Shown in pieces: positions 17,403-35,465 of a stretch of DNA of 54,506 bases. The notes under the pieces are model-generated. The model saw only the letters and a program-made list of their open reading frames with translations. It was not told where the DNA came from and searched no databases. The position numbers and the translations under genes are program-made. The DNA is from Desulfobacterales bacterium (GTDB taxonomy: Bacteria > Desulfobacterota > Desulfobacteria > Desulfobacterales > C00003060), in contig JABXJW010000003.1 of assembly GCA_013375395.1 (NCBI GenBank), positions 1 to 54,506 on the forward strand, in the 5' to 3' direction. The first letter of the stretch is position 1; every line of letters begins with the position of its first letter.

Positions 17403-17437
17403 GGCCGTTTTCCTCCTTCTTGGTCTTTTTATTGTTT

Positions 17438-17714: not shown

Positions 17715-17747
17715 GTGAAAGGAAATAAGCGTTTATCCAAACGGACA

Positions 17748-19003: not shown

Positions 19004-22000
19004 ATGTCACTAATGCAGATTCCGAAATGGCTCTCTAAGCGTCCAATTAGCCGCGATGATCCTCTCGAATTGAGGCAACTTTTTCCGGAGGACGGGTTAA
19101 ACTTTTTTTCAGATATCTCGATTGAAGCAGTGAAGGAATATTATCATCTTTACCCAGGCAACGTTTTTTATGGACTTATCAGAATCCTAGGATTTTGCGG
19201 TGTTCAATTTTATGAAAAACTGTCTGCCTATAGCGGCCCCCTCGAACCATATCCGGACGTTCTCTGTATTTCCCCTGAACATGGACAAGATCGGCTTTCT
19301 TGTATCCTGCATGATACAAATTGGACTCCGTTTTTTCGTGCCTGTGGCATTCGTACCTTAAAACAACTTCATGGTGTCCCGGTAGAAAGCTTTATTCGAA
19401 TGTCGAAACAGCCCCTTACTCCCGACCAAGTTGTTTCAATTTTACCTGCAACTATTACAACGGCACATGATGATTTTTTTGTTAAAACTCCAACAGTACC
19501 GACAATATTTAATATCACTGCAGAACCAGACAATCAGAGCCAGTTGGAAGAGAGTCAGCCTCTGGCGAAATACTGCCCTATTTTGGATGACGACAAGCGT
19601 CTGTCAGAACCTGTCGAAAGTCTGCAATTATCCGTTCGCTCCGTGAACTGTTTACATTCCAACAATATCCACTATATTGGTGAATTGCTCGCGAAGAGGG
19701 ATGAGGAATTAATCGCAATTCCTCACATAGGGAAAAAATCATTCCAAGAAATAAAAGACGGTCTTTTTGACATTGGCCTCTACACTGGGTTGAATGTTGA
19801 AATAATTATTGAAACCAGAGAGCCTTCTGATGATGAAAATGTTTCTTCGCGTTCAGTCGACACATTAAACCTTTCTGTCCGGTCAAGAAACTGTCTTAAG
19901 CAAGCCAATATACGTACTATTTCGGAGCTACAGACAAAAACCGACAAAGAACTGTTTGCCATTCGCAATTTTGGGAGACAATGCCTCAGAGAGATTCGAA
20001 CAAAAGTTAGGCATGTTGAGTCGGATCAAAACCAAAATGTGGTCCCGAGATTTATTCTAAAAGACGAAATCCGGAACGAAATTGACCTTAATTCGAAAGA
20101 GACACTCGCAAAGCTCTGCACAAAAATAAGTGATTTGGTCTTATCCACGCGCAGCAGAGGGTGTTTGAAGAAACAGAATATTGAGTTTATATGGCAGATA
20201 GTCCAACTAACTGAAAAGGAGTTACAGGAAGTTCGCAACCTAGGCCGCAAATCCATTAATGAGATAAAAGGGGTGATAGAAAATTTAGGATTATCCCTCT
20301 GTGTATGTTTTACGCCAGAACAGCTGAGTATCATCAATAGCTATAAACCGACGATCCCCAAGGTTGTTGCATTGGCTCACCGAATAAACAGGGTTGTCTT
20401 AGAGTTGAGTGTTTCACCTTTAACCTTTTTAAATGATCGGGAAAACATAGTTGTCAGCGAGCGACTGTTTAAGGAGGGCAGAAAAAAAACGCTAGAAGAA
20501 ATAGCTAAGCATATTTCGTTGACTCGGGAGAGGGTTCGTCAAATCGAATTGTCAGCTATATCAAAGATCAAACAGAAATACATAAAAAATCTAAGGATTG
20601 TTGTTTCCAATGTGAAGCAGCTCGTTGATAATGTTGGTGGGGTTACAAGTTTAGAAGAACTTGATGTTTACCTAACTGAATTGACAGCCCGTGAACAAAC
20701 TATAGTCGTTTGTTTGTTGCAAATAATGGACGAAGAGCTATTTATCGATTGGGAGTTCGGCCTTGTTTCTACAAATGGTGAGGAATTGATACTCTCTCTT
20801 TGCGATGTCATCCAGGAGGAAATCATCCAGACAGTGTCGGACAAATTTTTTACCGAGCATGATCTCGTCGAGACGGCTAGAAAAGTCATGCATAGGTTTG
20901 GCCTATCATCCAATCAGTGTGAAAAGAATCTAATCAATAGATTTTACCTAGAAAAAAAGGTTACGGTTTTTGAAAACCGTTTGTGTTGTGGAAGGATAAC
21001 CAAGCAAGACCAAATAGTTCAGGCGTTTAAAGAGTTCTTTCCTGATGGGTTGGAGGTGTACAAAAAACAAGATGTTTTAGTTCAGCGGTTAAAGGAATCT
21101 GATCCAAAAAGGTTTGGAAATGCTTCTCCAAGATCAATCCTTGGAAGATTAATAGACCACCCTGAGGTATTGTTATGGGGCCGTGGTTTTTTCATCCACA
21201 AAGATAATGTGTTCTATAAGGAGGATGTCGTTAAAAAGGTGGCAATCTGGATAGAACGCCGCTTCGACCAAGGTCACTCCCGATTTCAAATTGATATTCC
21301 CTTTAGTGCATTTCGGGATGAATTGCTACAAAGTGGCGTGCCTAATCAGTATGCCTTGTATACCCTGATCCGATTGCAGAACCACAAACGAATTGGCCAG
21401 AGGAGATTCCCTACCCTTGTCGACTTGGAGGCTGATGTCGATATCCAGGAAGGGGTTCTTCAAGAGTTAGAAAACTTTTTTCTTCAAGCTGGTGGGCCAA
21501 TCCCCCTCTCACAATTGAAAGAAGAATTTCTTGTTAAACGGGGGTGGAAGGATTATATGTTACAGCTAAACTTGACTGTCAATTCCGAGTTGATATACCC
21601 TTGGAAAAATCAATCCTATATCCATATTGAATATATTCCGGTCGATTATGCCAAACTTCAGGATGTTCTTGAGGCCCTGCGAGTAAAGCTTAACTCCATC
21701 CAGGGAGCCTACAGCCTGAAGGGCTCCAAAAAGGAAATGAATGTCCTTTGGGAACAGGCTTGCCCTTCTGCCTCGGTTCGAACGATGATCAAACTAATCC
21801 GTTCAGTGGACCCTGAAGATCTTCAAATAGAGCGGTATTTTGTCCAATTTGCTGATTCGTCGACAGAGTTTGTGTCTCCCGTTGCGGAGCTTGAGGAATT
21901 TTTTTTGAATAAAGGTGTGGAACTCAACACCTATGAATTGCATAAAGAATTTTGTACTCAAAGGGGGTGGTCGGAAAATCAATTATATGGAGCGATTCGC

Positions 22001-22522
22001 AAGGCACGATTATTCAGATCGGGCAAATCGACGTATCTGCATCCGGCGACAATCGGCTGGAATGAATCATTGTCCCAGGAAGTACACCAGGTTATGGAAG
22101 CCCATCTATCCGAGCGAAACAAAAATTGCTATCCTCACATGCAGATTGAAGAGCTTATTTATCAATATGCTTTGCCGGAATTGCCCCAAAATATTCAATG
22201 GACTCGTTATCTCATGAAAAGTGTTGGTGAAGAATTTGGAGATTTTCTCTTTCTTGACGATGCCTATGTCGCCGTTGATAACGATTTTGATATTGAAGAC
22301 CTTGATGACATGATCGGTTTTTTGATCGGTTGCCATTTTCGTCTGGGAATTGCAAAAAGAGTTGAACTCGAACAAATGTTATGGCGGGAAGGCATACTTG
22401 AAAGCGGCAGATCCATTCCAGCTGATCAGTATTTCGAAGAATCATCTATAGTGTTTTTAGAAGATAGTGATGAAGTTGGATTGAGCCCAATTGGGTACGA
22501 GAGGTATGGCCACTCAATATAG
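19004..22522 (+). CDS. Large protein with three RNA polymerase alpha-CTD repeats, a sigma70 region-4 HTH and a long uncharacterised C-terminus
   Basis: Three 'L.LS.RS..CL...NI..I..L......EL..I.N.G.KS..EIK' repeats; 'TLEEIAKHISLTRERVRQIE'; stop overlaps the start of the helicase gene. Confidence 0.85.
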   Translation: MSLMQIPKWLSKRPISRDDPLELRQLFPEDGLNFFSDISIEAVKEYYHLYPGNVFYGLIRILGFCGVQFYEKLSAYSGPLEPYPDVLCISPEHGQDRLSCILHDTNWTPFFRACGIRTLKQLHGVPVESFIRMSKQPLTPDQVVSILPATITTAHDDFFVKTPTVPTIFNITAEPDNQSQLEESQPLAKYCPILDDDKRLSEPVESLQLSVRSVNCLHSNNIHYIGELLAKRDEELIAIPHIGKKSFQEIKDGLFDIGLYTGLNVEIIIETREPSDDENVSSRSVDTLNLSVRSRNCLKQANIRTISELQTKTDKELFAIRNFGRQCLREIRTKVRHVESDQNQNVVPRFILKDEIRNEIDLNSKETLAKLCTKISDLVLSTRSRGCLKKQNIEFIWQIVQLTEKELQEVRNLGRKSINEIKGVIENLGLSLCVCFTPEQLSIINSYKPTIPKVVALAHRINRVVLELSVSPLTFLNDRENIVVSERLFKEGRKKTLEEIAKHISLTRERVRQIELSAISKIKQKYIKNLRIVVSNVKQLVDNVGGVTSLEELDVYLTELTAREQTIVVCLLQIMDEELFIDWEFGLVSTNGEELILSLCDVIQEEIIQTVSDKFFTEHDLVETARKVMHRFGLSSNQCEKNLINRFYLEKKVTVFENRLCCGRITKQDQIVQAFKEFFPDGLEVYKKQDVLVQRLKESDPKRFGNASPRSILGRLIDHPEVLLWGRGFFIHKDNVFYKEDVVKKVAIWIERRFDQGHSRFQIDIPFSAFRDELLQSGVPNQYALYTLIRLQNHKRIGQRRFPTLVDLEADVDIQEGVLQELENFFLQAGGPIPLSQLKEEFLVKRGWKDYMLQLNLTVNSELIYPWKNQSYIHIEYIPVDYAKLQDVLEALRVKLNSIQGAYSLKGSKKEMNVLWEQACPSASVRTMIKLIRSVDPEDLQIERYFVQFADSSTEFVSPVAELEEFFLNKGVELNTYELHKEFCTQRGWSENQLYGAIRKARLFRSGKSTYLHPATIGWNESLSQEVHQVMEAHLSERNKNCYPHMQIEELIYQYALPELPQNIQWTRYLMKSVGEEFGDFLFLDDAYVAVDNDFDIEDLDDMIGFLIGCHFRLGIAKRVELEQMLWREGILESGRSIPADQYFEESSIVFLEDSDEVGLSPIGYERYGHSI

Positions 22523-24653
22523 CCTGCAAGATGTACCGATTAAGAATACCTACTCTAGCCTAGAGACGGATTTGGTAGATGAACTGGTCGTTCCTCTGCT
22601 TCAGCGTGCCGTTCAGTACGACCGTGGGGTGGGATTCTTCACCTCCGGCTGGTTGAAGGAAGCAGCCAAGGGTTTGCTATCCTTTGTCAAACATAACGGA
22701 AAGGCACGCATTATAACTTCGCCGAATTTATCGGAACAGGATTGGCAAACTATCAAGGTAGCTGATGAACAAAGGCAGGGGCAAATGATCGTTGCAGGTT
22801 CTATTGAAAATGCCCTTTCTGATTTGAAGAAAAAATTGGAATATGACACCTTAGCTGCTTTAGCTTGGTTGATACGCGACGGAATCCTGGAATTTTGTTT
22901 TGCAATCCCACAAGGGAATCTAGCAGGAGGGATTTTCCACAGCAAGCTATCAATTTTCATTGACCCATATGGCAACGGTGTAGCATTGCACGGTTCACAA
23001 AACGATAGTGTGCAGGCATCGCTCAACGAAGAGAGTTATTCCGCTTTCTGTTCCTGGAATGAAGGGGTAAAATGGTTTGATGAACATTGCTATCGTTTCA
23101 ATCAAATCTGGAACAACCTTTTTCCGAAGTTACGCGTCCTGAAGGTCCCGGAGGTGGAAAAAGAAAAGCTTATCCGTTACACGAAAGAGTATCCTCGGCC
23201 ATATCCCGCACCATCCGTAGAAGGTGGCAGCACGGCTGCCTTGCCTCCTGTGCCATCATTGCATCCTGTAAAAACTCCGCGTGATTATCAAAAAAAAGCC
23301 ATTGCCAAGTGGGAAGAACAGGGACGGCGCGGTATTTTCGAAATGGCGACCGGTACGGGCAAGACCATTACCGCTATCTTGGCGGCAGTCAATGTCTTCC
23401 AGCAAGAAGGCAGTTTGGCTCTTGTGGTCCTGGTGCCATACAAGCATTTGGTTGATCAATGGATTGAGGAGTTGCGGGGATTCGGTTTTCTGCCAATTCC
23501 TTGTTACGAGAGCATCAATACGTGGAAAAAGGTTGCTGCCAACAGTATCCGCGAGGTTAATGCCAGGCTGGTTAGTAATCTGTGCTTGGTGAGTACGCAC
23601 CAGACGGCATCCATGGAGCCCTTCCGGAAAATGATCTCAAGGCTCCACTCCCCTTTTTTGCTGCTTGGGGATGAGATACATGAATTGGGAGCGGCTCATT
23701 ACAGAAAAGCTCTGTCTGAGCACGCCCCTTGGCGAATTGGTCTGTCAGCCACCCCTGACCGGTGGTATGACGAGGAGGGCACTTCGTTTTTGCGTACATA
23801 TTTCGGCGAGACCGTTATCAAGTATGAACTCGATCAGGCAATCAAGGATAAAGCCTTGACCCCTTATCAATATTATCTGGAAAAAATTGATTTTAATACA
23901 GAGGAGATTGCCGAGTATTTGCGTCTTTCTAAGTTGATTGCACAACTCAGTACGGATGCAGAAAAAAACCAGACCAGGCTGGAAGATTTGCTGAGGAGAC
24001 GGGCTGATTTGATCGGCAAGGCGGCCAATAAAATTCCGCGCCTGTTGGCCATAGTGCAAGCACATCGTAAAGCGTGTGAGGTGGAAGGGGAAAAATACCA
24101 ACACATTTTAGTTTATTGCAATAAAGGGACCCACCGCGAGGTGTTGACAGCCATGGCCGGATTGGGCCTGCGCATGCATGAGTTTGTTCATGATGTTCCA
24201 CTGGTCGAACGACGAAAGATTCTCGATGCCTTCAGTAAAGGAGAAATCGACGGCCTAGTTGCCATTCGCTGTTTAGATCAAGGAGTGGATGTGCCGGCAA
24301 CCCGCAGGGCCTATATTCTCGCCAGCTCCACCAACCCAAGAGAATTTGTACAAAGGCGTGGCCGAATATTACGAAAAGCCGAGGGAAAACAATTTGCGCA
24401 AATATACGATTTTCTGGTAGGACCTTGGAATACAACTGAGGTGTTGAGCAACGAATCAGCACGAGGGTTGCTTTTACGCGAGCTACCGCGGTTCGCTGAG
24501 GTTTCCTTGGATGCCATAAATTCCCAGGAGGCCAGAAACGCCATTTGGTATACGGTTATGGATTTAGACCTTGTCGCCTATTTGCGAAAAAGACCTTGGG
24601 AAGTGTATCAGGAAATGCAGCAAAGAAAACTGGATCAGAATTATGAGAGATAA
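22506..24653 (+). CDS. pbeA: PLD-like nuclease + SF2 DEAH helicase (PbeA-like, dnd-associated)
   Basis: 'FHSKLSIF...GSQNDS' HxK motif; 'EMATGTGKT', 'DEIH', 'GLSATP', 'CLDQGVDVP', 'QRRGRILR'; next to a dnd cluster. Confidence 0.75.
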   Translation: MATQYSLQDVPIKNTYSSLETDLVDELVVPLLQRAVQYDRGVGFFTSGWLKEAAKGLLSFVKHNGKARIITSPNLSEQDWQTIKVADEQRQGQMIVAGSIENALSDLKKKLEYDTLAALAWLIRDGILEFCFAIPQGNLAGGIFHSKLSIFIDPYGNGVALHGSQNDSVQASLNEESYSAFCSWNEGVKWFDEHCYRFNQIWNNLFPKLRVLKVPEVEKEKLIRYTKEYPRPYPAPSVEGGSTAALPPVPSLHPVKTPRDYQKKAIAKWEEQGRRGIFEMATGTGKTITAILAAVNVFQQEGSLALVVLVPYKHLVDQWIEELRGFGFLPIPCYESINTWKKVAANSIREVNARLVSNLCLVSTHQTASMEPFRKMISRLHSPFLLLGDEIHELGAAHYRKALSEHAPWRIGLSATPDRWYDEEGTSFLRTYFGETVIKYELDQAIKDKALTPYQYYLEKIDFNTEEIAEYLRLSKLIAQLSTDAEKNQTRLEDLLRRRADLIGKAANKIPRLLAIVQAHRKACEVEGEKYQHILVYCNKGTHREVLTAMAGLGLRMHEFVHDVPLVERRKILDAFSKGEIDGLVAIRCLDQGVDVPATRRAYILASSTNPREFVQRRGRILRKAEGKQFAQIYDFLVGPWNTTEVLSNESARGLLLRELPRFAEVSLDAINSQEARNAIWYTVMDLDLVAYLRKRPWEVYQEMQQRKLDQNYER

Positions 24654-24843
24654 AGTAACCATCGAGTCGATTCTAGGCCAAATCAACGATCCGGCAGTAA
24701 GGATCATTGCGGAGCATTCCCTAAGAGTTGCCAGGAAGGCTCTTAATATGAGTGAATATTCCCGCAAGCGGTTTGTTGTTGAAGAAATAGACAAGATTAT
24801 GCCGAGGGCACTAAAGGTCAGAGCAAACCATGATACTACATAA
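24643..24843 (+). CDS. pbeB: Small protein between helicase and ATPase (PbeB position)
   Basis: 66 aa, overlaps both neighbours; assigned by synteny only. Confidence 0.5.
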   Translation: MRDKVTIESILGQINDPAVRIIAEHSLRVARKALNMSEYSRKRFVVEEIDKIMPRALKVRANHDTT

Positions 24844-26866
24844 CATTGAACTGGTTGATTTCCGGCAATTTAAAGGCCGCCAGGCGATCGATTGCGCGAC
24901 CGGTTCTCCCCATAACGTTTCAGTTATATATGGCGAAAACGGCAGAGGAAAGACCGGCATTTTTCGGGCTCTGATGTTCTGCCTTTATGGTGACCGAAGC
25001 CTTTCCCAGGATGAACTCTCCGGCGAACAAAAGAAAGAAGGGCTGAGCCTGATCAACGAGGTAACGCTTAAAGAAAACATTGGGAGTCAGGTTGAGGCAC
25101 AGGTCGCAATTTCTTTTTCTCACCAACGAAAGAATTTTCGAATCGTCCGCCGAGTCGACGGCTTAATGAAAACAGACGGGACAATTATTCAGAATCCCGG
25201 AGGCCGGGTCGAATTACAACAAACCGACGAAAATGGCAATACTCAGCCAGTTGAGACCGACTTGGAAAAAATAACGGGCCAAATTCAGGAAATTCTTAAT
25301 TCGCGGCTGCGAGACTATTTCCTGTTTGATGGAGAACGCATCGAACGTCTAACTCGCAACACCAGGGAACGGCGGGAAGAAGTTCGCCGGGGCATCAGGG
25401 CACTTTTGGACCTGGATGCCTTGGAATTGGCCAATGCGGGGCTGAAGAGTTTGATATCACAGATCGAAAAAGAGATCGGCCATAAATCCACCGGCGAACT
25501 GCAACGAGTTTACACCCATATCGATGCATTAAACACAAAAATTGATGACCTGGAAAATGCCCAGGAGCTTGGTACCCAGGAATTAAAACGGCTGGAACAT
25601 AAGATCTACGAAATTTCCGAAATGGTTAGTGAAAACGAGGACACCGCTGCAAAAGAGCGAAAACGACAGGAGTTAATAAAAAACAGTCAAGACTTAAAGG
25701 TGGAAAAGGATGCACTAAAGAAAGAAATGGTCGGCTACCTGAACAAGAGCGCCCAATTGGTCGCTTCCCAACTGATCGAACAGCTCCGGGAAGAGTTGGA
25801 GTTCCGGCGACACAAGGGTGAGCTACCGCCGAGTATTCGCAAGGAATTTGTAGAGAAACTACTGGAACAGGAACGATGCATCTGCGGGACCTCTTTAGGG
25901 CACGACCATCAGCAGGAGCGGGAATGTCTACAGGAATTCCTTGTAAAGCACTACACCCCTGGGCTTGGCAGCGAGAGTCTGGACCTTCTTTTATCTTTAA
26001 ACAGACTTTCCAGTGCCAACGAAGGATTAGCAAACCAGTTCAATCGATTATTGGTTAAAAATAAAAAGCTGAGAGATGAGATAGCTGACCTGGAATCCAA
26101 GATCAAGTTATTAAGCGATGAACTTAAAGAAGGGGGAACCAGCGTTGATGATTTGATTCAGGAAAGAAGCCGGTTGGAAGATGATAAACGGACACTCGAA
26201 AGAGAAATGGATCGTCAAGCTGATGAAATTGCCCGGGCTCAAGACGATAGGGAAGATTGGTTAAAGAGGACCAATGTTCTGGAAAAACAGCAAAGCCAGG
26301 TAGACAGCCTGGTCGCCAGGCGCGATCTTACCAAGGAAACTCTGGCAGAACTGAAAGCAATTTACGATCGATTCGCCAATGAGGCCAAAGAAAGACTGGC
26401 AGAAAAATCCACCGAAATCTTCACCAGGCTGGCGGATGAGGGAACCCAAAAAGATATCAAGAAAATCAGCATCGACGAAAGTTATATGCTGGATGTTTTG
26501 AACTGGACCGGCCAGCGACGACTCGGCGAGATCTCCGCCGGCCAGCGCCAGATTGTCTCCCTGTCGTTTATCATGGCCCTCATCCAGGTCGCTGGGAATT
26601 TGGAGGTTGCTTTATTCATGGATACTCCCTTTGGCCGGCTGTCGGGTGTGCATCGGGACCATCTGCTAGACACTATCCCTAAGATGGCATCGCAATGGAT
26701 TCTTTTGGCCACGGATACGGAATTTACCGAGGTTGAGGCCAACGCTCTGAGACAGACCAACGCATGGGGAAAGATTTATGAACTGGTTAAGGAGGGGGAA
26801 GGAATCACTCAGATAGTTGAACGTGAGGTTCATCAATTTACCCCCAAGCGTAAATCAATTTTTTGA
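24830..26866 (+). CDS. pbeC: SMC/Rad50-like ABC ATPase with CxC hinge (PbeC-like, DndD paralogue)
   Basis: 'YGENGRGKT', 'YFLFDGERI', coiled coil with 'CICG', 'ISAGQRQ', 'FMDTPFGRL', 'ATDTE'. Confidence 0.75.
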   Translation: MILHNIELVDFRQFKGRQAIDCATGSPHNVSVIYGENGRGKTGIFRALMFCLYGDRSLSQDELSGEQKKEGLSLINEVTLKENIGSQVEAQVAISFSHQRKNFRIVRRVDGLMKTDGTIIQNPGGRVELQQTDENGNTQPVETDLEKITGQIQEILNSRLRDYFLFDGERIERLTRNTRERREEVRRGIRALLDLDALELANAGLKSLISQIEKEIGHKSTGELQRVYTHIDALNTKIDDLENAQELGTQELKRLEHKIYEISEMVSENEDTAAKERKRQELIKNSQDLKVEKDALKKEMVGYLNKSAQLVASQLIEQLREELEFRRHKGELPPSIRKEFVEKLLEQERCICGTSLGHDHQQERECLQEFLVKHYTPGLGSESLDLLLSLNRLSSANEGLANQFNRLLVKNKKLRDEIADLESKIKLLSDELKEGGTSVDDLIQERSRLEDDKRTLEREMDRQADEIARAQDDREDWLKRTNVLEKQQSQVDSLVARRDLTKETLAELKAIYDRFANEAKERLAEKSTEIFTRLADEGTQKDIKKISIDESYMLDVLNWTGQRRLGEISAGQRQIVSLSFIMALIQVAGNLEVALFMDTPFGRLSGVHRDHLLDTIPKMASQWILLATDTEFTEVEANALRQTNAWGKIYELVKEGEGITQIVEREVHQFTPKRKSIF

Positions 26867-26893
26867 TGCGTTGATTTTTCGAGGTTTTTGGTT

Positions 26894-27346
26894 ATGCAGG
26901 AAACATCCGACAACCCAATGGCCCATATCAGCAAGAGATGGGAGTCCATCTATGATGTACTCTGCCGTGGTGATAGCATATTTGACCAGATGACAAATCT
27001 CTTCACGCTCTGTGCCGCAATAGGTCATTTGAATGGCGAGGAAAAACAGCCGGAAAATAAAAAGGGTATTTTTAGATGGACAAATCTTAACTCAGAGATT
27101 GGTGTGTCCATCCTAACGGCCATTGCCTGGGATGCCAGAGATAGAGAGCTTGCAATTTTAACAGATAAAAGAAGAATTATGGATATCGCCTGTGATTTTG
27201 CCGAGGGTGGTATGCAGTACCTGTATGATAACTTCTTCGAGGATCATATGCAGGATGGCCAACTCCTCAGGCCGGAAAAACTGGATGTCGAATTCAACTT
27301 GGCACAGATTGTTGAAGGATTGAGACAGAAGCAGAGTATGTTTTGA
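26894..27346 (+). CDS. pbeD: Small DndE-like protein (PbeD position)
   Basis: 'LFTLCAAIG' and 'FAEGGMQYL' resemble dnd-associated small proteins; follows the ATPase. Confidence 0.55.
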   Translation: MQETSDNPMAHISKRWESIYDVLCRGDSIFDQMTNLFTLCAAIGHLNGEEKQPENKKGIFRWTNLNSEIGVSILTAIAWDARDRELAILTDKRRIMDIACDFAEGGMQYLYDNFFEDHMQDGQLLRPEKLDVEFNLAQIVEGLRQKQSMF

Positions 27347-27370: not shown

Positions 27371-28168
27371 ATGAAAGGTATAGACGAACATTGCTCCAAT
27401 CTAAGTAAGCTTGTCTCAGGGTATGAGCCAGAAATAGAATGGTTACGCCAGTCTGAATGGCTTAGTATTGCGTCAGGAATAAAAAGTGTTGAATTTGATA
27501 TAGTTCGCTATGACTCATGCTTTGGGTGGTGCCACAATGCCGACTATTGGCATATCGCACGAGAGAAGCTTCTTGAAAGCTATATTACTGAACTTACGCG
27601 TTTCACATACGTTTGGGGGGCGCTTGAATCTTTAATTAATGACTTACACCTTCCGCCAGGTCCGGAAAAAGGGAAAATCAACTCTATCTGTGGTTATTTG
27701 AAAAATAAACTTTCGTCATACGACATCATTTATCCTTACCCAGATCTTGTAGAGGATTTGAAACACATTTTAAATGATAACAGCGTCAATGAACCAAAGA
27801 TACAGGCGCGTTTTGCTGCCAACTATTTATCATCACATGGTATAGGTGTTTATGTAATATACAGCTTAAGAAATTTATTTGTTCATGGAGTAATTGGTTT
27901 TCCTGAGCCAAATGAAGAAAATAAGCCTGAAAGTGCATACCCTAAGATAGTGAACATGTCTACCAGAATTGTCCTTTTGACTCTACAGATGATTTGGTTG
28001 GCTTATTACAAAGGTACAGGGATTTGCAGTACTCTGCATTGGGAGCCTGACGTTTGCGAAGATAAATACTATCTTGAAGAAATTTTACATAAAATTCACT
28101 TGAAAGATTATGCGGTTCAAAGAGATATCGCTAAACGCCAGCTAAATATACAATGGGGAAATCCCTAA
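27371..28168 (+). CDS. Hypothetical protein with HEPN-like RxxxxH motif
   Basis: 'FTYVWGALESL' and 'IYSLRNLFVHG'. Confidence 0.6.
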   Translation: MKGIDEHCSNLSKLVSGYEPEIEWLRQSEWLSIASGIKSVEFDIVRYDSCFGWCHNADYWHIAREKLLESYITELTRFTYVWGALESLINDLHLPPGPEKGKINSICGYLKNKLSSYDIIYPYPDLVEDLKHILNDNSVNEPKIQARFAANYLSSHGIGVYVIYSLRNLFVHGVIGFPEPNEENKPESAYPKIVNMSTRIVLLTLQMIWLAYYKGTGICSTLHWEPDVCEDKYYLEEILHKIHLKDYAVQRDIAKRQLNIQWGNP

Positions 28169-28185
28169 TATGTGAGGAGTTATGT

Positions 28186-29523
28186 ATGTCTGTAATAGAT
28201 GAATCTTTTACCATCAAAGCATCTCCCACGAAAGAACTTTTTATCTATATGATGACCCGGGATATACCCCTAATCCGTGCAATACTTGACTTGGTTGACA
28301 ATTCCGTCGATGGCGCGACTCGCTTACAGCCTGGTGGTGATTATTCAACATTTTGGGTCCGTATCGAATGTACGGAAGAACACTTTGCCATATCTGATAA
28401 TTGTGGAGGAATACCCATTTCAACCGCTCGTGATTATGCTTTCCGTTTCGGCAGACCAAAAGATATGGAATTAACCCCTGGTTCAATCGGTAAGTTTGGG
28501 GTCGGAATGAAGAGGTCATTCTTTAAACTTGGCAATAAATTTACAGTAAAATCCACGACCTCTACATCCAAATTTGTGGTTGAACACTATGTGAGAGAAT
28601 GGCTAGAAAAGCCGGAAGATTGGCATTTTAAGTTTAAAGTAAAAAATGAATCTCTAAAAAATGTACCTGAGCAAAAAATAGGTACACAAATTTTGATTGA
28701 GGAACTCTTCGAAAGTGTATCAAAAAGTTTTGGGCTTGGAAATTTCAGAAAAGAACTTTGTGACGAAATAGAAACAGCCCATGCAGTAGTTATGGCAAAG
28801 GGACTCGCAATTTCCTTTAACGGTCGTCCTCTTGGGAAAAGGACACTGTCTTTGTATAAATCAGACCAATTAAAACCGGCGTTTATCGAGAAGCGGTATG
28901 AGAATATTGGGCCAGCAGTTGTCAAAGTGCAAATTTACGCTGGAATTTCGGATCGAGATTTTGAAAAAGGTGGTTGGTATATTTTCTGTAATGGGAGGAT
29001 GGTATTAGAGGCCGACCAGACGGATATCACAACGTGGGGTGGTAGCAATACGACACCAAAATATCACCCTGACTTTGCTTTTTTTCGAGGCTATGTTTTT
29101 TTTGACTCGGAGGATGCAGAACTCCTTCCATGGACAACAACGAAAACTGGCATTGATAGTGATTCAGGGCTATATAAAAATGTAAAATTGGAAATGATTA
29201 CATTGATGCGTCCCGTGCTCGATTTCTTAAGAAAACTTGCAAAAGAAAGAGCCGATGTTGAAAAAGGAGATATAGACAAAAGTCTTTTAGAGGAATCAGT
29301 AAAGAAAGCAGAATCGACCAACTATTTAGACTTAAAGGATAAAGGTGCTTTTATTACTCCTAAATTTGATCCAATACCAAGGGGACCACGAACTGGTCGC
29401 ATCCAATACAATAAACCAGTAGATGATATAAAAAAATTGAAAAAAATACTTGGAGTTACAACCTATACGGCGGTTGGGGAAAAAACATTTGATTATTTCA
29501 TGAGAATGGAATGTGAAGAATGA
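28186..29523 (+). CDS. MORC/GHKL-family ATPase
   Basis: 'AILDLVDNSVD', 'ISDNCGGI', 'IGKFGVGMKRS', 'GTQI'; S5-like 'GWYIFCNGRMV', 'LPWTTTK'. Confidence 0.88.
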   Translation: MSVIDESFTIKASPTKELFIYMMTRDIPLIRAILDLVDNSVDGATRLQPGGDYSTFWVRIECTEEHFAISDNCGGIPISTARDYAFRFGRPKDMELTPGSIGKFGVGMKRSFFKLGNKFTVKSTTSTSKFVVEHYVREWLEKPEDWHFKFKVKNESLKNVPEQKIGTQILIEELFESVSKSFGLGNFRKELCDEIETAHAVVMAKGLAISFNGRPLGKRTLSLYKSDQLKPAFIEKRYENIGPAVVKVQIYAGISDRDFEKGGWYIFCNGRMVLEADQTDITTWGGSNTTPKYHPDFAFFRGYVFFDSEDAELLPWTTTKTGIDSDSGLYKNVKLEMITLMRPVLDFLRKLAKERADVEKGDIDKSLLEESVKKAESTNYLDLKDKGAFITPKFDPIPRGPRTGRIQYNKPVDDIKKLKKILGVTTYTAVGEKTFDYFMRMECEE

Positions 29524-30461
29524 AAGCCAGTTATGAAAAAATAAACTATAACATTAGAGCGGCGAAATGTATTGAACGGAAAATGTTATGTGAATCATTC
29601 AGACGTTTATCTGTTTTTGGAAAAATAGAATCGTATAATTATGTCGGTTTTGGTTCAACATATTTCAGTGACTTTTCTTTTTTCCATAAGTCGTTGGATA
29701 TCAGAAACATGATAAGCATAGAAAAGGACGAAAATAATAAAGATAGATTTGAATTCAATCGGCCGTTTCGATGCATAAAAATGGAGTATGGTTCTTCGAA
29801 TGAAATTCTCCAAAAGCTAAATTGGGACGCAAGAACTATATTGTGGCTTGATTATGATGGCCGTTTAAATCAAGAAGTGTTGTTAGATATTAATTCCTTC
29901 TGTACAAAAGTAACTCCAGGGAGTCTCATCATTATTTCTGTTAATGCAGAACCGGGAAAAGAACTGGGAACACGCTTTCAAAAGTTGCGCGACGCAGTCG
30001 GCCATAAAAAGATACCAGAAGGAACACGCGAGAAAGATCTTTTGAAATGGGGTACAGCAAAGGTGTTTAGGGCAATTATTTATAATGAGATCATGCAAAT
30101 CCTGAATGGACGGAATGGAGTGCGAAGTCAAGGCAACAAGCTTTGTTACAGACAGCTATTTAATTTCAATTATTCAGATGGTGCTAAGATGCTCACGACA
30201 GGGGGGATTATTTACGACGAAGGCCAAAGGCCATTATTTGATAGGTGTTCTTTTCGGGACCTCTTATATATTCGCGAGGAAGATGAAGCCTACCATATAG
30301 AAATTCCCAACCTTACCTTCAAAGAAATACGATATCTTGATGAGCAACTACCAAGAAAGCAGGGGCAGACCCTAACAATATCTGGAGTTCGACAAGCAGA
30401 TATTAATAAGTATGAGAAGGTGTATAGGTATTTTCCTGCTTTTACAGAGGCTAATTTGTGA
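29520..30461 (+). CDS. Putative SAM-dependent (O-)methyltransferase
   Basis: 'YNIRAAKCIERKM', 'YVGFGSTYFSDF', 'MISIE', 'ILWLDYDG', 'YSDGAKM'; ATGA overlap with the MORC gene. Confidence 0.7.
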   Translation: MKASYEKINYNIRAAKCIERKMLCESFRRLSVFGKIESYNYVGFGSTYFSDFSFFHKSLDIRNMISIEKDENNKDRFEFNRPFRCIKMEYGSSNEILQKLNWDARTILWLDYDGRLNQEVLLDINSFCTKVTPGSLIIISVNAEPGKELGTRFQKLRDAVGHKKIPEGTREKDLLKWGTAKVFRAIIYNEIMQILNGRNGVRSQGNKLCYRQLFNFNYSDGAKMLTTGGIIYDEGQRPLFDRCSFRDLLYIREEDEAYHIEIPNLTFKEIRYLDEQLPRKQGQTLTISGVRQADINKYEKVYRYFPAFTEANL

Positions 30462-30546: not shown

Positions 30547-30912
30547 CTAACCAAAATGTGCCAAATCCGAAAAAGATTTCACTCGAGCCGACAATATCTC
30601 AACCCCCCTATTGATATGGGCAAGAAACATTGTGTCAATTTCACTCATTGAAATCTTATCTTTTACTAATCGAGAAATTAATAACGCTACAAAGAGCTTG
30701 TCATACTTGCCCAGCAAGGTATAACGATTGATCTCCCTTCCGATCTTAGTGTTTTCCTCAATGGTCGCAGGAATCCCCTGCTCTTCCAACGACAGGCAGA
30801 ATCCTAGACGGCATAAAATATTAGGTGTGATACCGGTGCGAGCCTTTAGCATTCGCAATTGATTGCCCGCATCTACTGTAAATGGAATGCGTTGGAGGGT
30901 TAGTTCGTACAT
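30547..30912 (-). CDS. dndE: DNA sulfur modification protein DndE
   Basis: 'LKARTGITPNILCRLGFCLSL', 'HINRG'; follows dndD. Confidence 0.92.
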   Translation of the reverse strand: MYELTLQRIPFTVDAGNQLRMLKARTGITPNILCRLGFCLSLEEQGIPATIEENTKIGREINRYTLLGKYDKLFVALLISRLVKDKISMSEIDTMFLAHINRGVEILSARVKSFSDLAHFG

Positions 30913-32927
30913 GTGCGCTTCTTCCAAAAATACTCTTCTATTGAGACCGTTCGCTTGGTTTCATTCTCATATTTGAGGTGATAGCAATGAGATATGTTAG
31001 GGCTAAGCTCCTCATACAGTTCTTGATCAACCTCGGTGTCAGTAGACAACAGAATTACCTGGTGAGAAGCCTTAGGAAAGTAATTTTCGATTAAGTTGCG
31101 CCGATGGTCACTGTCGAGCCGACCAAGTGGTGTGTCCACAATGACAGGCAAGGGCCGACCCGATGTCTTGGCCAAGCCCCATAGGACAGAGATTGCATAC
31201 AGTTGTTTTTCTCCAGAAGAAAGACCCTCCTTGGGAATTGTTTGGTGAAAACGGTCATAGTAAGTAACGGCAAAAGTCTCAGGATCTATCTTAATCGAGT
31301 GAATAATGTCATCCTTGCGACAAAGCTTGTTAAGACAATCAACCACTGCCTGGCTGAGTTGGCCAATTTTTTTCTCAGTTAATCTCTTGAGATAAGTATC
31401 TAGAGTAGCTTGAATAGTTTTTACCAAAGAAAGTCGGCTTTCGATAGATTCCTCATGCATTTGCTTCTCAATTAACTTCTTTTGGTCTCGCTGCAATAGC
31501 ATGAGGTCATATTTTTTCTTGAGAACCTCTTCCTCATTCTTTTTCTTTTTGTAATGAAGATCTCCCATACGTTGGCTTAATGATGATAATTCCTCGAATA
31601 TTGGTTGGACTTGGGCTTCGGCTGGGCCTTTGGCTAGTTGCTTCGAGGTGGTCCGCAAGTCGCGAATATCCCTTTCAAGCGCTTGACCGACCTTCTTTAC
31701 ACGTGGGAGAGATCGTCTGTCACTATCATTTAGCCACTCGAGAATTTGCTGTGACTCTGATGCAGAAAAACCGAATATCACCTGAATGTTGTTTTGATAC
31801 GCAGGGGGTTGAACTCGTGGCCTGATAACACTTTGTATGATAGAAGTGACTTCCTGTTTTGATGAGTTGTTAAGTTTTAACTTACTAGAGGAAACAGCTG
31901 ACAGTAACTCATCTTGCAAGCCCTCTATTTCATTCCTCACTGCACTCCAGTGTACGATTTCCTTTTCTTTTGAAATTTGCTCTTGAAGCGCTTTGCTCAC
32001 TGAAGGACACAAACTGAAGGGATAAGTTAATTCACATTCCTCTTTTATCTGGGCCTTATATTTTTCTATCTGAGCAGTAATAGCTACTTTTTTATTCTTG
32101 AGTGAATCCCGTTTTGAGGCAAAGACATGTCCTTCTTGGTGAAGGCGCTGCTCCCTTGCTCGAATATCAGCAGTTATCCCGTTTATCTTCGTTTCTATAT
32201 TGGCATGTTCTTCTAACAAAATCTGTAACTCTGCTTCGATATTGCCAATTTTCATTTCTATTTCGTTCCAGTCTTTTTGATCACGTTTGGTAGAAAGCTT
32301 CTTTGCCTCGCGGGAAGAGTAAATTGCTAAATCGGCTTTAAGTTTTTCAACCACATCCAGGCCTAAAAGTGTTTTTATTGAATCTACCAGGGCATAACTG
32401 CCGGTTTTGTCCTCTGCTATGCTTTTGATCTTTTCTCCATCAAAGAAAAAGAGTTGAGAAAGGCGCTCTGGAATTATTTCTTCAACGAATCCCTTCCAGT
32501 ACTCAGGTGTAATGTCATCCAATGCTTGGCCATTCACAAAAATTTTAAGAAACTCTTTTACACCTTTTCGCTTTTTTAATGTCCAAGAGCGTTCAACATA
32601 ATAGCTTTGTTTCTCCCCCATGAAGACATAATCAAACTCAATTGCCACTTTTGCATACTCTGGGGATAGCAATCCATTTCCGGACTGATGGACCTGTTGT
32701 CGTAAGAAGGCTTCATACCTTTCTTGACTTATTCGATCTCCTAAAATTGACATCCCATACAAAACCAACCTTATCGCATCCAAGAAAGTTGTTTTGCCTG
32801 CGCCATTCTTGCCACCAAACAAAATTACAGGCCGTTCTTTCCTGTATTTTACACGCGGCGTGAGGTCGAACTCAACCTTGCCCGAATACAAACCAAAGTT
32901 TTCCAAAATTACTTTATTTAAAAGCAT
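30900..32927 (-). CDS. dndD: DNA sulfur modification protein DndD
   Basis: 'FGGKNGAGKTT', 'LFFFDGEKI', 'LSSGEKQ', 'IVDTPLGRLDSDHR', 'ASHQVILLSTDTE'. Confidence 0.95.
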   Translation of the reverse strand: MLLNKVILENFGLYSGKVEFDLTPRVKYRKERPVILFGGKNGAGKTTFLDAIRLVLYGMSILGDRISQERYEAFLRQQVHQSGNGLLSPEYAKVAIEFDYVFMGEKQSYYVERSWTLKKRKGVKEFLKIFVNGQALDDITPEYWKGFVEEIIPERLSQLFFFDGEKIKSIAEDKTGSYALVDSIKTLLGLDVVEKLKADLAIYSSREAKKLSTKRDQKDWNEIEMKIGNIEAELQILLEEHANIETKINGITADIRAREQRLHQEGHVFASKRDSLKNKKVAITAQIEKYKAQIKEECELTYPFSLCPSVSKALQEQISKEKEIVHWSAVRNEIEGLQDELLSAVSSSKLKLNNSSKQEVTSIIQSVIRPRVQPPAYQNNIQVIFGFSASESQQILEWLNDSDRRSLPRVKKVGQALERDIRDLRTTSKQLAKGPAEAQVQPIFEELSSLSQRMGDLHYKKKKNEEEVLKKKYDLMLLQRDQKKLIEKQMHEESIESRLSLVKTIQATLDTYLKRLTEKKIGQLSQAVVDCLNKLCRKDDIIHSIKIDPETFAVTYYDRFHQTIPKEGLSSGEKQLYAISVLWGLAKTSGRPLPVIVDTPLGRLDSDHRRNLIENYFPKASHQVILLSTDTEVDQELYEELSPNISHCYHLKYENETKRTVSIEEYFWKKRTCTN

Positions 32928-32938
32928 ATCTTCAGACT

Positions 32939-34375: not shown

Positions 34376-35465
34376 ATTTGTCTTCTATAAGTTGTTCACT
34401 GGGATCAAGCGGCAGGTTAAGCACTTTTTTTATAGCATTTGCGGTTAAAATTACATTGGTTTGGGATTTATTAAGTCGTCCGCCAACTAAGGCACGACCC
34501 TCCCACAGGTCGGCGTTATCCCGTGCCCAGTTTATTGTTCTAATCTTCTTTAGCCGGTGTTTCCATTTTTTGGGTTCTGTGGCGATTAAACTGCTTCCGG
34601 CAATCGCTAAGGCCTGGAGCGCGATCCCATGGGCATGTACATAATCCTTACGAAGTTCACTCGTGGTTACCTCTCGCTTAACAGCGGCAAGCCAATCTGG
34701 CATGTTTTTGGCTATTTCAGTCCAATAATCAAAGGCCAGCTTTTCCTCGGGTGGGCTTACCTCCTCCTCCACTTTTTTTTGCAGAAGTCGCTTTGTTGCC
34801 AGATAGATGCTGCTAAGAGTGAAAAGTTTTCTCGAACGGTTCGATATGGTGCTCCTTGCCGTTTCTGTCATCCCTTTGAATACTGTTACTTTTTTTATTA
34901 AACGGCTCACTAATCTTGCCATTGGGTCCCGGTGGTCATAAAGGATCCCCAATGATTTGGTGGGACGCACTGCGTACCGATTGAGATCGGCAAACATCTG
35001 TTGGCTCTGCTTTAATCCTGAATCTACAAAAAGGACAACTGTAATCGTCTCATGACCTAAGGCTGGATTTTCTTCAAGGGCTGCCTCAATGGCTGCCCGC
35101 CTGTGTTGACCATCATTAATAAGAAATTTCGCTTCCATCGGGACAGATAAGATCCCAATTTTGCGACCTATTGTGTCTTCACCTAACGCCTTAAAGTCAA
35201 CCTCTGCATCAATAGAAGCACTGATCGCGGAAAAAACATGACTATTCGAGTTTTCCACAATATATCGAGTAAGGGCAGGTATTCTTCCTTTATTGAGCGA
35301 GCGCTGTGCTCTCAGCTCAGATGGAACGTCCTCGTTATTATAATTGAACATCTTTGGAAGAAGATGGAGAGGGCACATGGTGCTGTAATACTCTCTCCCA
35401 GCTTGAATCCCTCGAATGGCTGGAAATGAAATAGTATAATCGCGCGTCAATTTACTGATTGTCAT
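34350..35465 (-). CDS. dndB: DNA sulfur modification protein DndB (DGQHR)
   Basis: 'FPAIRGIQAGREYY', 'RAQR.LN', 'INDGQHRRAAI', 'QQMFADLN'. Confidence 0.95.
   Translation of the reverse strand: MTISKLTRDYTISFPAIRGIQAGREYYSTMCPLHLLPKMFNYNNEDVPSELRAQRSLNKGRIPALTRYIVENSNSHVFSAISASIDAEVDFKALGEDTIGRKIGILSVPMEAKFLINDGQHRRAAIEAALEENPALGHETITVVLFVDSGLKQSQQMFADLNRYAVRPTKSLGILYDHRDPMARLVSRLIKKVTVFKGMTETARSTISNRSRKLFTLSSIYLATKRLLQKKVEEEVSPPEEKLAFDYWTEIAKNMPDWLAAVKREVTTSELRKDYVHAHGIALQALAIAGSSLIATEPKKWKHRLKKIRTINWARDNADLWEGRALVGGRLNKSQTNVILTANAIKKVLNLPLDPSEQLIEDKYEKGQNSK

What the first reader, a model, noticed from the sequence alone, without database searches (positions are those of the whole stretch)
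19004..27346. Protein built from RNA polymerase parts (3x alpha-CTD + sigma70 region 4) heads a PbeABCD-like operon
Seen: a 1172-aa ORF with three tandem alpha-CTD repeats and a sigma region-4 HTH but no sigma region 2 or alpha-NTD. Its stop overlaps the start of the PLD-helicase, and the next two genes also overlap their neighbours, so this reads as one five-gene operon. Known: PbeABCD is a four-gene PT-dependent antiviral module described with archaeal dnd clusters; alpha-CTD and sigma-4 bind UP elements and -35 boxes and are common targets of phage proteins. Inference: this may be a fifth component, acting as a decoy sensor for phage RNAP-hijacking factors or as a promoter-scanning loader for the helicase-nuclease/SMC complex. 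It is my best candidate for an undescribed system here.
Basis: partly seen in the sequence, partly recalled or inferred. Interest (0 to 1): 0.82.

Follow-up and report, generated by a model that had tools for sequence, protein, structure and literature searches.

The report
RNA-polymerase-like DNA binder heading Pbe operon
A very large protein with no enzyme domain, built from copies of the parts that bacterial RNA polymerase uses to recognise promoters plus a chain of winged-helix domains, is a conserved extra first gene of a phosphorothioate-linked anti-virus operon and may show how that system picks its DNA targets.

Summary
Window 19004-22522(+) encodes a 1172-aa protein ("X") with three RNAP alpha-CTD repeats and one sigma70 region-4 HTH, and no alpha-NTD or sigma region 2. 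Folding adds a compact N-terminal domain and about nine tandem winged-helix (WH) units. No enzymatic fold was found.

X overlaps pbeA and is followed by pbeB, pbeC (CxC ABC ATPase) and pbeD, convergent with dndBCDE. In 13 of 13 loci found through X alone, pbeA lies directly downstream. In 400 genomes of the phylum, the X C-terminal profile matched only the two genomes whose copies were rows of that profile; both copies abut pbeA. Distant sigma-r4 proteins flank 6 of 14 plasmid pbe operons examined. The C-terminal profile finds 685 clusters at 50% identity, and the sigma recognition helix is nearly invariant.

Best reading: X is a fifth, DNA-binding scaffold or target-selection subunit of a Pbe variant, analogous to the alpha-CTD plus wHTH half of PglW. 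The decoy idea is neither excluded nor supported. It is a new variant of a known system and I did not find it in the papers I could read.

The parts
19004..22522 (+). Gene X: 1172-aa multidomain protein with no enzymatic domain, first gene of the conserved block
   Evidence: No conserved gene lies upstream of it across loci.
19004..19489 (+). X aa 1-162: compact N-terminal domain. aa 90-160 weakly resemble SAM / alpha-CTD-like helical folds; aa 1-88 have no match. A disordered linker follows (aa 165-200).
   Evidence: AlphaFold2 model, blocks 1-160 mostly pLDDT >85, pTM 0.77. Foldseek PDB gave 0 matches at E<=0.001. VIA-wide best Z 4.0; RpoA CTD 1z3e_B Z 3.8, rmsd 3.2, 63 aligned.
19589..19798 (+). 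alpha-CTD repeat 1 (aa 196-265)
   Evidence: Motifs LSVRSVNCL and IGKKS line up with the genome's own RpoA. This repeat is absent in many family members.
19829..20038 (+). alpha-CTD repeat 2 (aa 276-345)
   Evidence: R293 and G324 are invariant in 19 homologues.
20099..20311 (+). alpha-CTD repeat 3 (aa 366-436)
   Evidence: G414 is invariant and R383 and N412 are at least 90% conserved.
20414..20584 (+). sigma70 region-4 HTH (aa 471-527), recognition helix TRERVRQIE
   Evidence: It matches the own RpoD motif TRERIRQIE at 8 of 9 positions. R508, E509, R510, R512 and Q513 are invariant in 19 close homologues and at least 90% conserved in 43 distant ones.
20591..22519 (+). X aa 530-1172: about nine tandem units, most of them winged-helix folds. 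The middle units are basic and the last two are acidic (net -8 and -13).
   Evidence: AlphaFold2 pLDDT 87.2, pTM 0.46. Foldseek: UFL1 and SelB tandem WH. VIA-wide: Rpa2 WH Z 8.4, MCM WH 7.6, DpnI WH 7.6. Charges. Units 808-874 and 956-1017 are related (hhalign 98.2%).
22491..24653 (+). pbeA: HKD (PLD) nuclease fused to an SF2 helicase
   Evidence: PADLOC PbeA E 3.1e-216. ResIII and Helicase_C. H150 and K152 are invariant in 11 homologues.
24643..24843 (+). pbeB: 66-aa small protein overlapping pbeA and pbeC
   Evidence: 48-80% identical in the 11 loci that reach it. No HMM hit.
24830..26866 (+). pbeC: coiled-coil ABC ATPase with a CxC motif (ERCICG)
   Evidence: PADLOC PbeC E 1.6e-160. Translation.
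26888..27346 (+). pbeD: 152-aa protein
   Evidence: Position and size. Found in 10 of the 11 loci with DNA there. hhalign 93.8% to a plasmid protein annotated 'DNA phosphorothioation-associated protein 4'. No direct HMM hit.
28153..30461 (+). Accessory pair after pbeD: a GHKL ATPase (HATPase_c_3, weakly MzaB-like) and a Methyltransf_35 protein. The unassigned 265-aa ORF 27371-28168 lies before them.
   Evidence: The pair recurs after pbeD in L001, L008 and L012, and L002 is cut inside the ATPase.
30547..35465 (-). Convergent dndB (34350-35465), dndC (32939-34375), dndD (30900-32927) and dndE (30547-30927)
   Evidence: PADLOC DndC E 6e-198 and DndD E 1.3e-201. orf371 is 37% identical to an annotated DndB.

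Best explanation
X is a fifth, non-enzymatic subunit of a bacterial variant of the Pbe (CxC ABC-ATPase) restriction module that works with dndBCDE phosphorothioation.

Shown: its anatomy, namely an N-terminal domain, 3 alpha-CTD helix-hairpin-helix domains, 1 sigma region-4 HTH and about 9 winged-helix units. Also shown: its strict linkage to, and frame overlap with, pbeA.

Inferred: the alpha-CTD repeats, the sigma-4 HTH and the basic middle WH units bind duplex DNA, probably A/T-rich or -35-like (TTGA-type) promoter-like sequence, because the recognition helix is the housekeeping-sigma one. The best-conserved, strongly acidic C-terminal WH units dock X onto PbeA and/or PbeC-PbeD. X would thereby choose or present the DNA on which the helicase-nuclease and the ABC ATPase-DndE pair are loaded to check for phosphorothioate marks. 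That is the role BrxA / DUF4007 and the C-terminal half of PglW are proposed to play in BREX.
For: Linkage.
- 13 of 13 loci found with X-derived peptide patterns have pbeA directly downstream. pbeB and pbeC follow in all 11 loci that reach that far, and pbeD in 10.
- The pbeA frame opens before the X stop in the window and in the 9 other loci where I compared both frames.
- No conserved gene precedes X.
- In a 400-genome sample of the phylum, the X C-terminal profile hit only G106 and G312, both rows of the profile. Both copies abut pbeA.
- Distant relatives with the same order of domains precede pbeA on the Pontibrevibacter, Ruegeria, two Rhizobium and Arthrobacter plasmids. A short one follows pbeD in Aurantiacibacter. 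That is 6 of 14 pbeA plasmid regions examined.

DNA-binding features.
- All three repeats keep the SxRS motif and the glycine of the G(K/R)(K/Q)(S/C) turn. Repeats 1 and 2 also keep NCL; repeat 3 has GCL. The own RpoA has the same motifs.
- R293 and G324 are invariant.
- The sigma helix TRERxRQIE is invariant in 19 homologues and at least 90% conserved in 43 members that are only 16-26% identical overall.
- The number of alpha-CTD copies varies. In distant members they are replaced by generic HhH domains: Sigma70_r4 in 38 of 43, RNA_pol_A_CTD in 24 of 43, HHH_5 in 4 of 43. This fits generic DNA binding better than mimicry.

Folds and conservation.
- No catalytic fold was found; the C-terminal half consists of WH folds.
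- Conservation rises towards the C-terminus, from 34% pairwise identity in the N-terminal part to 57% in aa 1021-1172. The last two units carry net -8 and -13. This fits a constant docking surface plus a variable front end.

Precedent. PglW has an alpha-CTD-like domain followed by three wHTH modules, read there as a nucleic-acid-binding module (PMC12839542, passages read). The PglW HMMs align to X aa 284-555.
Against: - No binding, to DNA or to Pbe proteins, was shown here.
- The archaeal pbeABCD that was tested experimentally works without any such gene (PMC6459918). 8 of 14 plasmid pbe operons examined lack one, so X is not a universal requirement.
- The whole protein is acidic (net -29), which is unusual for a DNA binder.
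- The promoter-like specificity rests only on similarity of the recognition helix.
- The residue roles (265 determinant, -35 contacts) are recalled from the E. coli literature and come from no call.
- The close loci may be one horizontally spread cassette. L002/L012 and L004/L013 look like the same sequence seen twice, so the 13 loci are not 13 independent events.
- G106 and G312 match the profile by construction.
Confidence: 0.5

Rival explanations
1. Integrated decoy or guard. The alpha-CTD and sigma-4 copies imitate the host RNA polymerase parts that phages modify or bind, such as ADP-ribosylation of alpha-CTD or anti-sigma factors on region 4. Modification or binding of X would release or activate PbeA and PbeCD.
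For: - The repeats are close to genuine RpoA CTDs (about 61-65 bits each).
- The sigma helix matches that of the own RpoD at 8 of 9 positions.
- The arginine that aligns with the E. coli ADP-ribosylation target (a recalled role) is kept in all three repeats.
- N-termini vary across the family, with TPR, WD40 and DUF4145 in single members, as in sensor proteins.
- X evolves faster than PbeA and PbeC: 42-58% against 59-82% identity over full-length matches.
- The experimentally tested archaeal pbe operon has no such gene (PMC6459918).
Against: - By my alignment to the own RpoA, the acidic position that contacts sigma in E. coli alpha (a recalled role) is Q, N and V in the three repeats. Protein-contact surfaces are therefore not faithfully copied, while the DNA-contact motifs are.
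- The alpha-CTD copy number varies from 1 to 4. The copies are degenerate or replaced by generic HhH in distant members.
- The cassette sits in different phyla, which argues against mimicry tuned to a host.
- No trigger is known.
Confidence: 0.15
2. X is a transcription regulator of the pbe/dnd island, or a sigma-like factor, and not a working subunit of the restriction complex.
For: - The HTH is of the sigma region-4 type, and NCBI annotates relatives as 'sigma factor-like helix-turn-helix DNA-binding protein'.
- Many defence islands carry a regulator as first gene (my own knowledge).
- In Aurantiacibacter a short 437-aa version lies at the 3' end of the operon.
Against: - The protein has 1172 aa and about 14 domains, and lacks sigma region 2, so it cannot be a sigma factor.
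- It overlaps pbeA in frame-coupled fashion in every locus compared.
- The C-terminal WH array is more conserved than the DNA-reading part.
- It was never found away from pbeA in what was searched.
Confidence: 0.15
3. RNA-polymerase tether. The sigma-4 module binds the beta-flap of core RNAP, or the alpha-CTD copies bind activators, so that X couples the Pbe machinery to transcribing or initiating polymerase on invading DNA.
For: The region-4 fold and sequence are close to housekeeping sigma. The tested Pbe system is reported to stop virus DNA replication without visible cleavage (PMC6459918), which leaves room for action through host machinery.
Against: No test was done. Flap-contact residues were not evaluated. 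Sigma region 2, the main core-binding part, is absent.
Confidence: 0.08
4. X is an unrelated neighbour that merely lies next to pbeA.
For: None beyond its absence from many pbe operons (8 of 14 plasmid regions).
Against: 13 of 13 adjacency, overlapping frames, and the same order in operons whose PbeA is only 27-47% identical.
Confidence: 0.02

Closest known systems
PbeABCD, also called the CxC ABC-ATPase-DndE system (Xiong 2019, PMC6459918; NAR 2024, PMC10853773)
   Same: pbeA (HKD + SF2 helicase), the small pbeB, pbeC with a CxC motif, and pbeD, in that order and convergent with dndBCDE.
   Different: The described system has four genes. In the text I read there is no sigma or RNAP-like partner: 0 occurrences of 'sigma' and 'RNA polymerase' in PMC6459918, and in PMC10853773 only a sigma-related HTH inside a DndH variant. 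Here a 1172-aa fifth gene heads the operon.
PglW of type 2 BREX, C-terminal half
   Same: An alpha-CTD-like domain is followed by HTH/wHTH modules. The PglW HMMs align to X aa 284-555 or 367-555. PMC12839542 describes an RNAP alpha-CTD-like domain plus three wHTH modules as the nucleic-acid-binding part of a sensory hub.
   Different: X has no NERD nuclease, no kinases and no iSTAND domain. It scores 46 bits against a cut-off of 990. It has 3 alpha-CTD copies and about 9 WH units, and it is a separate polypeptide in a PT system rather than a BREX system.
MzaA (Mza / MADS-type systems)
   Same: It is a large defence-linked protein with a sigma70 region-4 HTH. Its model matches X and the plasmid relatives over region 4.
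   Different: Only about 55-85 residues match (X scores 32 bits against a cut-off of 800). A true MzaA-like protein (L005, E 5.5e-65) lies next to a kinase, not next to pbe genes.
BrxA / DUF4007 (SspB-like) tripartite HTH-wHTH proteins
   Same: They are non-enzymatic multi-HTH DNA-binding components of modification-based defence, proposed as scanning units (PMC12839542). DUF4007 genes lie beside pbe operons that lack X on two plasmids.
   Different: They are much smaller, with three domains and no alpha-CTD or sigma-4. Homology to X was not tested.
RpoA alpha-CTD and sigma70 region 4 of RNA polymerase
   Same: The domains are true sequence homologues, with the DNA-contact motifs retained.
   Different: There is no alpha-NTD and no sigma regions 1-3, so X cannot assemble into, or direct, RNA polymerase as those proteins do.

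Membership tests
PbeABCD / CxC ABC-ATPase system | PbeA: HKD (PLD) nuclease fused to an SF2 helicase | tested here: met
   PADLOC PDLC02707 E 3.1e-216 over aa 11-683. ResIII and Helicase_C. H150 and K152 invariant. NCBIfam dnd_restrict_1 scores 453 bits, below its cut-off of 600.
PbeABCD / CxC ABC-ATPase system | PbeC: coiled-coil ABC ATPase with a CxC zinc hook | tested here: met
   PDLC02730 E 1.6e-160. The motif ERCICG lies mid-protein.
PbeABCD / CxC ABC-ATPase system | PbeB: small, fast-evolving protein between pbeA and pbeC | tested here: inconclusive
   A 66-aa ORF lies in the right place and is conserved in 11 loci. No PbeB / Sp-DndD HMM hit.
PbeABCD / CxC ABC-ATPase system | PbeD: DndE-like partner after pbeC | tested here: inconclusive
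   152 aa in the right place. hhalign 93.8% to an annotated 'DNA phosphorothioation-associated protein 4'. No similarity to a small DndE profile (probability 0.2%) and no HMM hit.
PbeABCD / CxC ABC-ATPase system | Linkage to dnd phosphorothioation genes | tested here: met
   dndB, dndC, dndD and dndE are convergent at 30547-35465. The same holds in 6 related loci.
PbeABCD / CxC ABC-ATPase system | PT-dependent protection against viruses | not testable with these tools
   Needs an experiment.
RNA polymerase alpha subunit (RpoA) | N-terminal dimerisation and assembly domain | tested here: not met
   The rpoA models match only through their C-terminal positions, at 101-186 bits against cut-offs of 228-523. 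The real rpoA is elsewhere in the genome.
sigma70-family sigma factor | Region 2 (core binding, -10 recognition) | tested here: not met
   Only Sigma70_r4 is found. The sigma models match about 50-60 residues, far below their cut-offs.
PglW (BREX type 2) | NERD nuclease plus tandem kinases plus C-terminal iSTAND | tested here: not met
   Only model positions 792-981 match, at 46 bits against a cut-off of 990.
MzaA | Full-length match to the MzaA equivalog model | tested here: not met
   32 bits against a cut-off of 800, over region 4 only.
HARE-HTH | Match to PF05066 | tested here: inconclusive
   The ESM Atlas gave a lead at score 0.85. The HMM finds nothing in the whole genome at E<=10. One WH unit aligns at Z 7.0 to chain L of 7f75, tied with many other WH folds.

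The most novel reading that the evidence does not exclude
X is an integrated decoy of the promoter-recognition modules of host RNA polymerase. Phage enzymes or anti-sigma proteins that attack alpha-CTD or sigma region 4 would also hit X, and this would unleash the PbeA nuclease-helicase. That would be a prokaryotic counterpart of the integrated decoys of plant NLR receptors, and possibly shared with PglW and MzaA.
Probability: 0.13. Interest if true: 0.9.

Novelty: new variant of a known kind. Interest (0 to 1): 0.62.

Why it matters
How Pbe (CxC) systems find foreign DNA is open, and so is why the tested archaeal system stops replication without visible cleavage.

A dedicated, conserved, non-enzymatic partner carrying intact UP-element-type and -35-type DNA readers gives a concrete and testable candidate for the target-selection step in bacteria.

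It also links three defence systems (Pbe, BREX type 2 PglW and Mza) through a shared alpha-CTD / sigma-4 module. Whatever that module does, whether promoter-like DNA recognition or sensing of attacks on RNAP, it is likely a recurrent principle.

The family is not small: 685 clusters at 50% identity. In the records seen here it is annotated only generically, as 'DNA-directed RNA polymerase alpha subunit' or 'sigma factor-like HTH protein'.

Tried and rejected
- Complex prediction of X aa 905-1172 with PbeA: verdict 'no answer', score 0.00. It is not used as evidence either way.
- Expression: no RNA holder is listed. The only full holder is a DNA run that may be the source sample. No reads were laid.
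- HARE-HTH identity of the WH units: an Atlas lead at 0.85, no HMM match. Left open.
- DndE identity of PbeD by a small profile-profile comparison: no match.
- Pfam, NCBIfam and PADLOC gave nothing for X aa 1-199 and 530-1172, pbeB, pbeD or the 265-aa ORF.
- Foldseek on the N-terminal model gave no match at E<=0.001. VIA-wide gave only Z<=4.0, so aa 1-88 remain unassigned.
- tblastn of the X C-terminal half against plasmids: no match.
- A scan of viral contigs with the diverse alignment was not possible.
- A conserved upstream gene or regulator: none found. The 141-aa ORF with a sub-threshold WCX match has no counterpart in the other loci.
- The PbeA tree is only the quick version, with long branches. 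It shows one well-supported 11-row clade in which all rows have X, and scattered X-positive rows elsewhere. I draw no order of gains and losses from it.
- Literature. Krishnan et al. 2020 (NAR 48:10045), the first description of CxC systems, is not held, and supplements are closed. A mention of this protein there, or in Supplementary Data S1 of PMC10853773, cannot be excluded. My statement that the fifth gene is not in print rests on searches and on the passages and section read. One search returned only unrelated papers.

Full report
WHAT IS THERE

The ORF at 19004-22522(+) is real and encodes 1172 aa. Public collections start it at residue 4.

Pfam finds three RNA_pol_A_CTD stretches (E 1.6e-60) and one Sigma70_r4 (aa 476-523, E 3.1e-9), and nothing else. 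A family profile searched against PDB sequences hits only RpoA C-terminal domains and sigma region 4. Genome-wide HMM searches place the three alpha-CTD matches at 19541-20299 and the RpoD C-terminal match at 20402-20578. The true rpoA and rpoD genes lie on other contigs. The alpha N-terminal domain and sigma region 2 are absent.

THE REST OF THE PROTEIN

aa 530-1172 fold with high local confidence (pLDDT 87.2) but low global confidence (pTM 0.46). The model is a string of about nine helix-helix-helix-hairpin units.
- Foldseek's 6 matches at E<=0.001 are the tandem winged-helix arrays of UFL1 and SelB.
- An exhaustive structural search matches the single units to winged-helix domains. The best are Rpa2 (Z 8.4, rmsd 2.1, 58 aligned), MCM C-terminus (7.6), DpnI (7.6), Cul1, Stn1, MukF and ScpA.
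- No catalytic fold appeared.
- Only units 808-874 and 956-1017 are still recognisably related in sequence (hhalign 98.2%). The other 35 unit pairs score at most 3.6%.

aa 1-162 form a compact domain (pTM 0.77). It has no Foldseek match and only a weak likeness of aa 90-160 to SAM / alpha-CTD-type bundles (Z<=4.0). aa 165-200 are disordered.

The protein is acidic overall (net -29). The basic patches are alpha-CTD 2 and 3, sigma-4 and WH units 3 and 4. The last two units are very acidic, at -8 and -13.

THE OPERON

Downstream lie four genes:
- pbeA: PADLOC E 3.1e-216, with the HxK residues invariant.
- A 66-aa pbeB.
- pbeC: E 1.6e-160, with the motif ERCICG.
- A 152-aa pbeD: no HMM hit, but hhalign 93.8% to an annotated 'DNA phosphorothioation-associated protein 4'.

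X/pbeA, pbeA/pbeB and pbeB/pbeC overlap. Then come a 265-aa ORF, a GHKL ATPase and a Methyltransf_35 gene. Convergent with these are dndE, dndD, dndC and dndB.

None of the 40 relatives searched, 24 of them in the same genus, has a full pbeA. The island therefore looks horizontally acquired.

IS X PART OF THE SYSTEM?

Close family.
- Searching with the C-terminal half found 44 clusters at 90% identity. 43 carry alpha-CTD and 42 carry region 4.
- Peptide patterns from X alone recovered 4 loci in reference genomes labelled Desulfobacterales, 'Deltaproteobacteria', Bacteroidales and Desulfocapsa, plus 9 metagenome loci. Two further loci, L005 and L015, were domain-only matches.
- In 13 of 13 family loci pbeA follows at once. 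pbeB and pbeC follow in the 11 loci that extend far enough, and pbeD in 10. Convergent dnd genes occur in 6.
- L002/L012 and L004/L013 are probably duplicates, so about 11 of the loci are distinct.
- The pbeA frame opens before the X stop in all loci compared.
- Nothing upstream of X is conserved.
- X is 42-58% identical across these loci. PbeA is 61-79% and PbeC 59-82% identical over full-length matches.

Phylum sample.
- In 400 genomes of the phylum, pbeA (E<=1e-40) occurs in 5.
- The X C-terminal profile matched only G106 and G312, which were rows of the profile, and none of the other 398.
- In both genomes X (1308 aa, and 850 aa with a frameshift) abuts a pbeA that is 43-47% identical to the window's.
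- Of the other three pbeA genomes, two contigs end at the pbeA start and one has no X.

Plasmids.
- 31 records hold pbeA and I examined 14.
- Six carry a large protein with sigma region 4, mostly also with alpha-CTD-like HhH:
  - Pontibrevibacter: 1017 aa, upstream, with stop/start overlap.
  - Ruegeria: upstream, judged from coordinates.
  - Rhizobium NXC14: 748 aa, upstream.
  - R. leguminosarum: upstream, judged from coordinates.
  - Arthrobacter: an unannotated ORF ending 3 nt before pbeA.
  - Aurantiacibacter: 437 aa, located after pbeD.
- Eight have none: Halococcus, Chlorohelix (an IS4 lies upstream), Pseudanabaena, R. indigoferae, L. plantarum, a Sphingomonadaceae plasmid, Methylobacterium and B. 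thuringiensis.
- Sources.

A quick PbeA tree puts the window family with G106 and G312 in one supported clade in which every row has X. The other X-positive operons lie scattered among X-negative ones. The tree has long branches and came from the quick method.

FAMILY SIZE AND CORE

A profile of the C-terminal half finds 685 representatives at 50% identity (538 at E<=1e-10, 329 at E<=1e-30). Those listed are mostly 800-1400 aa.

I took 42 of the 150 listed, picked by hand down the list, plus X. Among these 43:
- 38 have Sigma70_r4.
- 24 have RNA_pol_A_CTD.
- 4 have HHH_5.
- 2 have a RAD51D_N-type HhH.
- 2 have DUF4145.
- Single members have N-terminal TPR or WD40.

At 16-26% overall identity, the sigma recognition-helix residues (R508, E509, R510, R512, Q513) stay at least 90% conserved, as do motifs in several WH units.

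The core is therefore a variable front, then HhH repeats, then sigma-4, then the WH array.

MECHANISM

The repeats keep the SxRS and G(K/R)(K/Q)(S/C) motifs, and the sigma helix is that of the genome's own RpoD at 8 of 9 positions. In E. coli, from recalled literature, these are the DNA-contact determinants for UP elements and the -35 box.

By my alignment, the acidic alpha-CTD position that touches sigma in E. coli (recalled) is Q, N and V in the three repeats. Protein-contact surfaces are thus not copied.

Three further points argue the same way:
- The number of repeats varies.
- The repeats are replaced by generic HhH domains in distant members.
- Conservation rises towards the acidic C-terminus.

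I read this as a DNA-binding front end and a constant docking end. X would be a target-selection or loading subunit for PbeA and PbeC-PbeD (confidence 0.5). The decoy model (0.15), a regulator (0.15) and an RNAP tether (0.08) remain open.

That X is a working part of this Pbe variant I hold at about 0.85.

COMPARISON WITH WHAT IS KNOWN

The four-gene PbeABCD was defined in haloarchaea. All four genes contributed to defence there: pbeB, pbeC and pbeD were indispensable and pbeA only partly. Defence was PT-dependent (PMC6459918, passages read).

It was re-described as the CxC ABC-ATPase-DndE system, whose partners are the HKD-helicase, the small protein, methylases and MTaX1 (PMC10853773, section 16 read whole). 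Neither text mentions an alpha-CTD / sigma-4 partner.

[quoted passage not shown] The PglW and MzaA models match X only over that module.

X fails the defining features of RpoA, sigma factors, PglW and MzaA. The operon meets those of Pbe.

VERDICT

The interpretation as a fifth component is supported, and the proposed mechanisms remain undecided. X is a new variant of a known system that I did not find described in what I could read. The first CxC paper and all supplements could not be read. Interest 0.62.

Noticed in passing
window 28153-30461 (+); L001 18396-20698; L008 10099-12379; L012 18155-20451: A GHKL ATPase (HATPase_c_3, weakly MzaB-like) and a Methyltransf_35 gene follow pbeD in the window and in three full related loci. 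L002 is cut inside the ATPase. This may be a further accessory module of this Pbe variant. The 265-aa ORF 27371-28168 has no match in any locus.
   Followed up: partly
L031 8940-10382; L032 8909-10309: In the two distant X-pbe operons of the same phylum, a roughly 470-aa protein with a radical-SAM match below Pfam's cut-off follows pbeD instead of the ATPase/methyltransferase pair.
   Followed up: no
window 32939-34375 (-): DndC carries a C-terminal Sp-DndD / PbeB-like small-protein module (aa 417-460; Pfam PF20306, PADLOC PbeB E 2.2e-7). The small protein seems to be fused here.
   Followed up: no
L005 8558-12095: A Bradymonadales MAG holds an MzaA-like sigma-r4 protein (E 5.5e-65) next to a PD-T4-6 / mad6-like kinase. 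This is another defence context for the sigma-4 module.
   Followed up: partly
L032 1284-4129 (G106): The X homologue in G106 is split near its C-terminus into two frames (850 aa plus a 132-aa frame). This points to a frameshift or an assembly error.
   Followed up: no
L003 1860-3972; L004 3344-5375: pbeA in L003 matches in two pieces whose coordinates fall in different frames. pbeC in L004/L013 matches in two overlapping pieces. These may be frameshifts or an internal duplication.
   Followed up: no
L041 9158-15401; L049 1-5911: On two alphaproteobacterial plasmids, pbe operons without X sit beside a set of cysteine desulfurase, DUF4007, large ATPase and PAPS reductase genes. From recall this looks Ssp-like or BREX type 4-like. 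Pbe therefore pairs with more than one modification module.
   Followed up: no
window 12483-18803: Upstream of X lie other defence-island-type genes: an RNase_H_2 protein, an isochorismatase, a DUF4062 + HATPase_c_4 protein with weak pAgo-associated matches, a small RPA_C-like WH protein, and a 141-aa ORF with a sub-threshold WCX match.
   Followed up: no
proteins P0006, P0014, P0040, P0042, P0044, P0049: Six of the 44 homologues carry a precomputed Pfam hit PF26169 that my Pfam scans did not report. I could not find out what that family is or where it lies in the protein.
   Followed up: no
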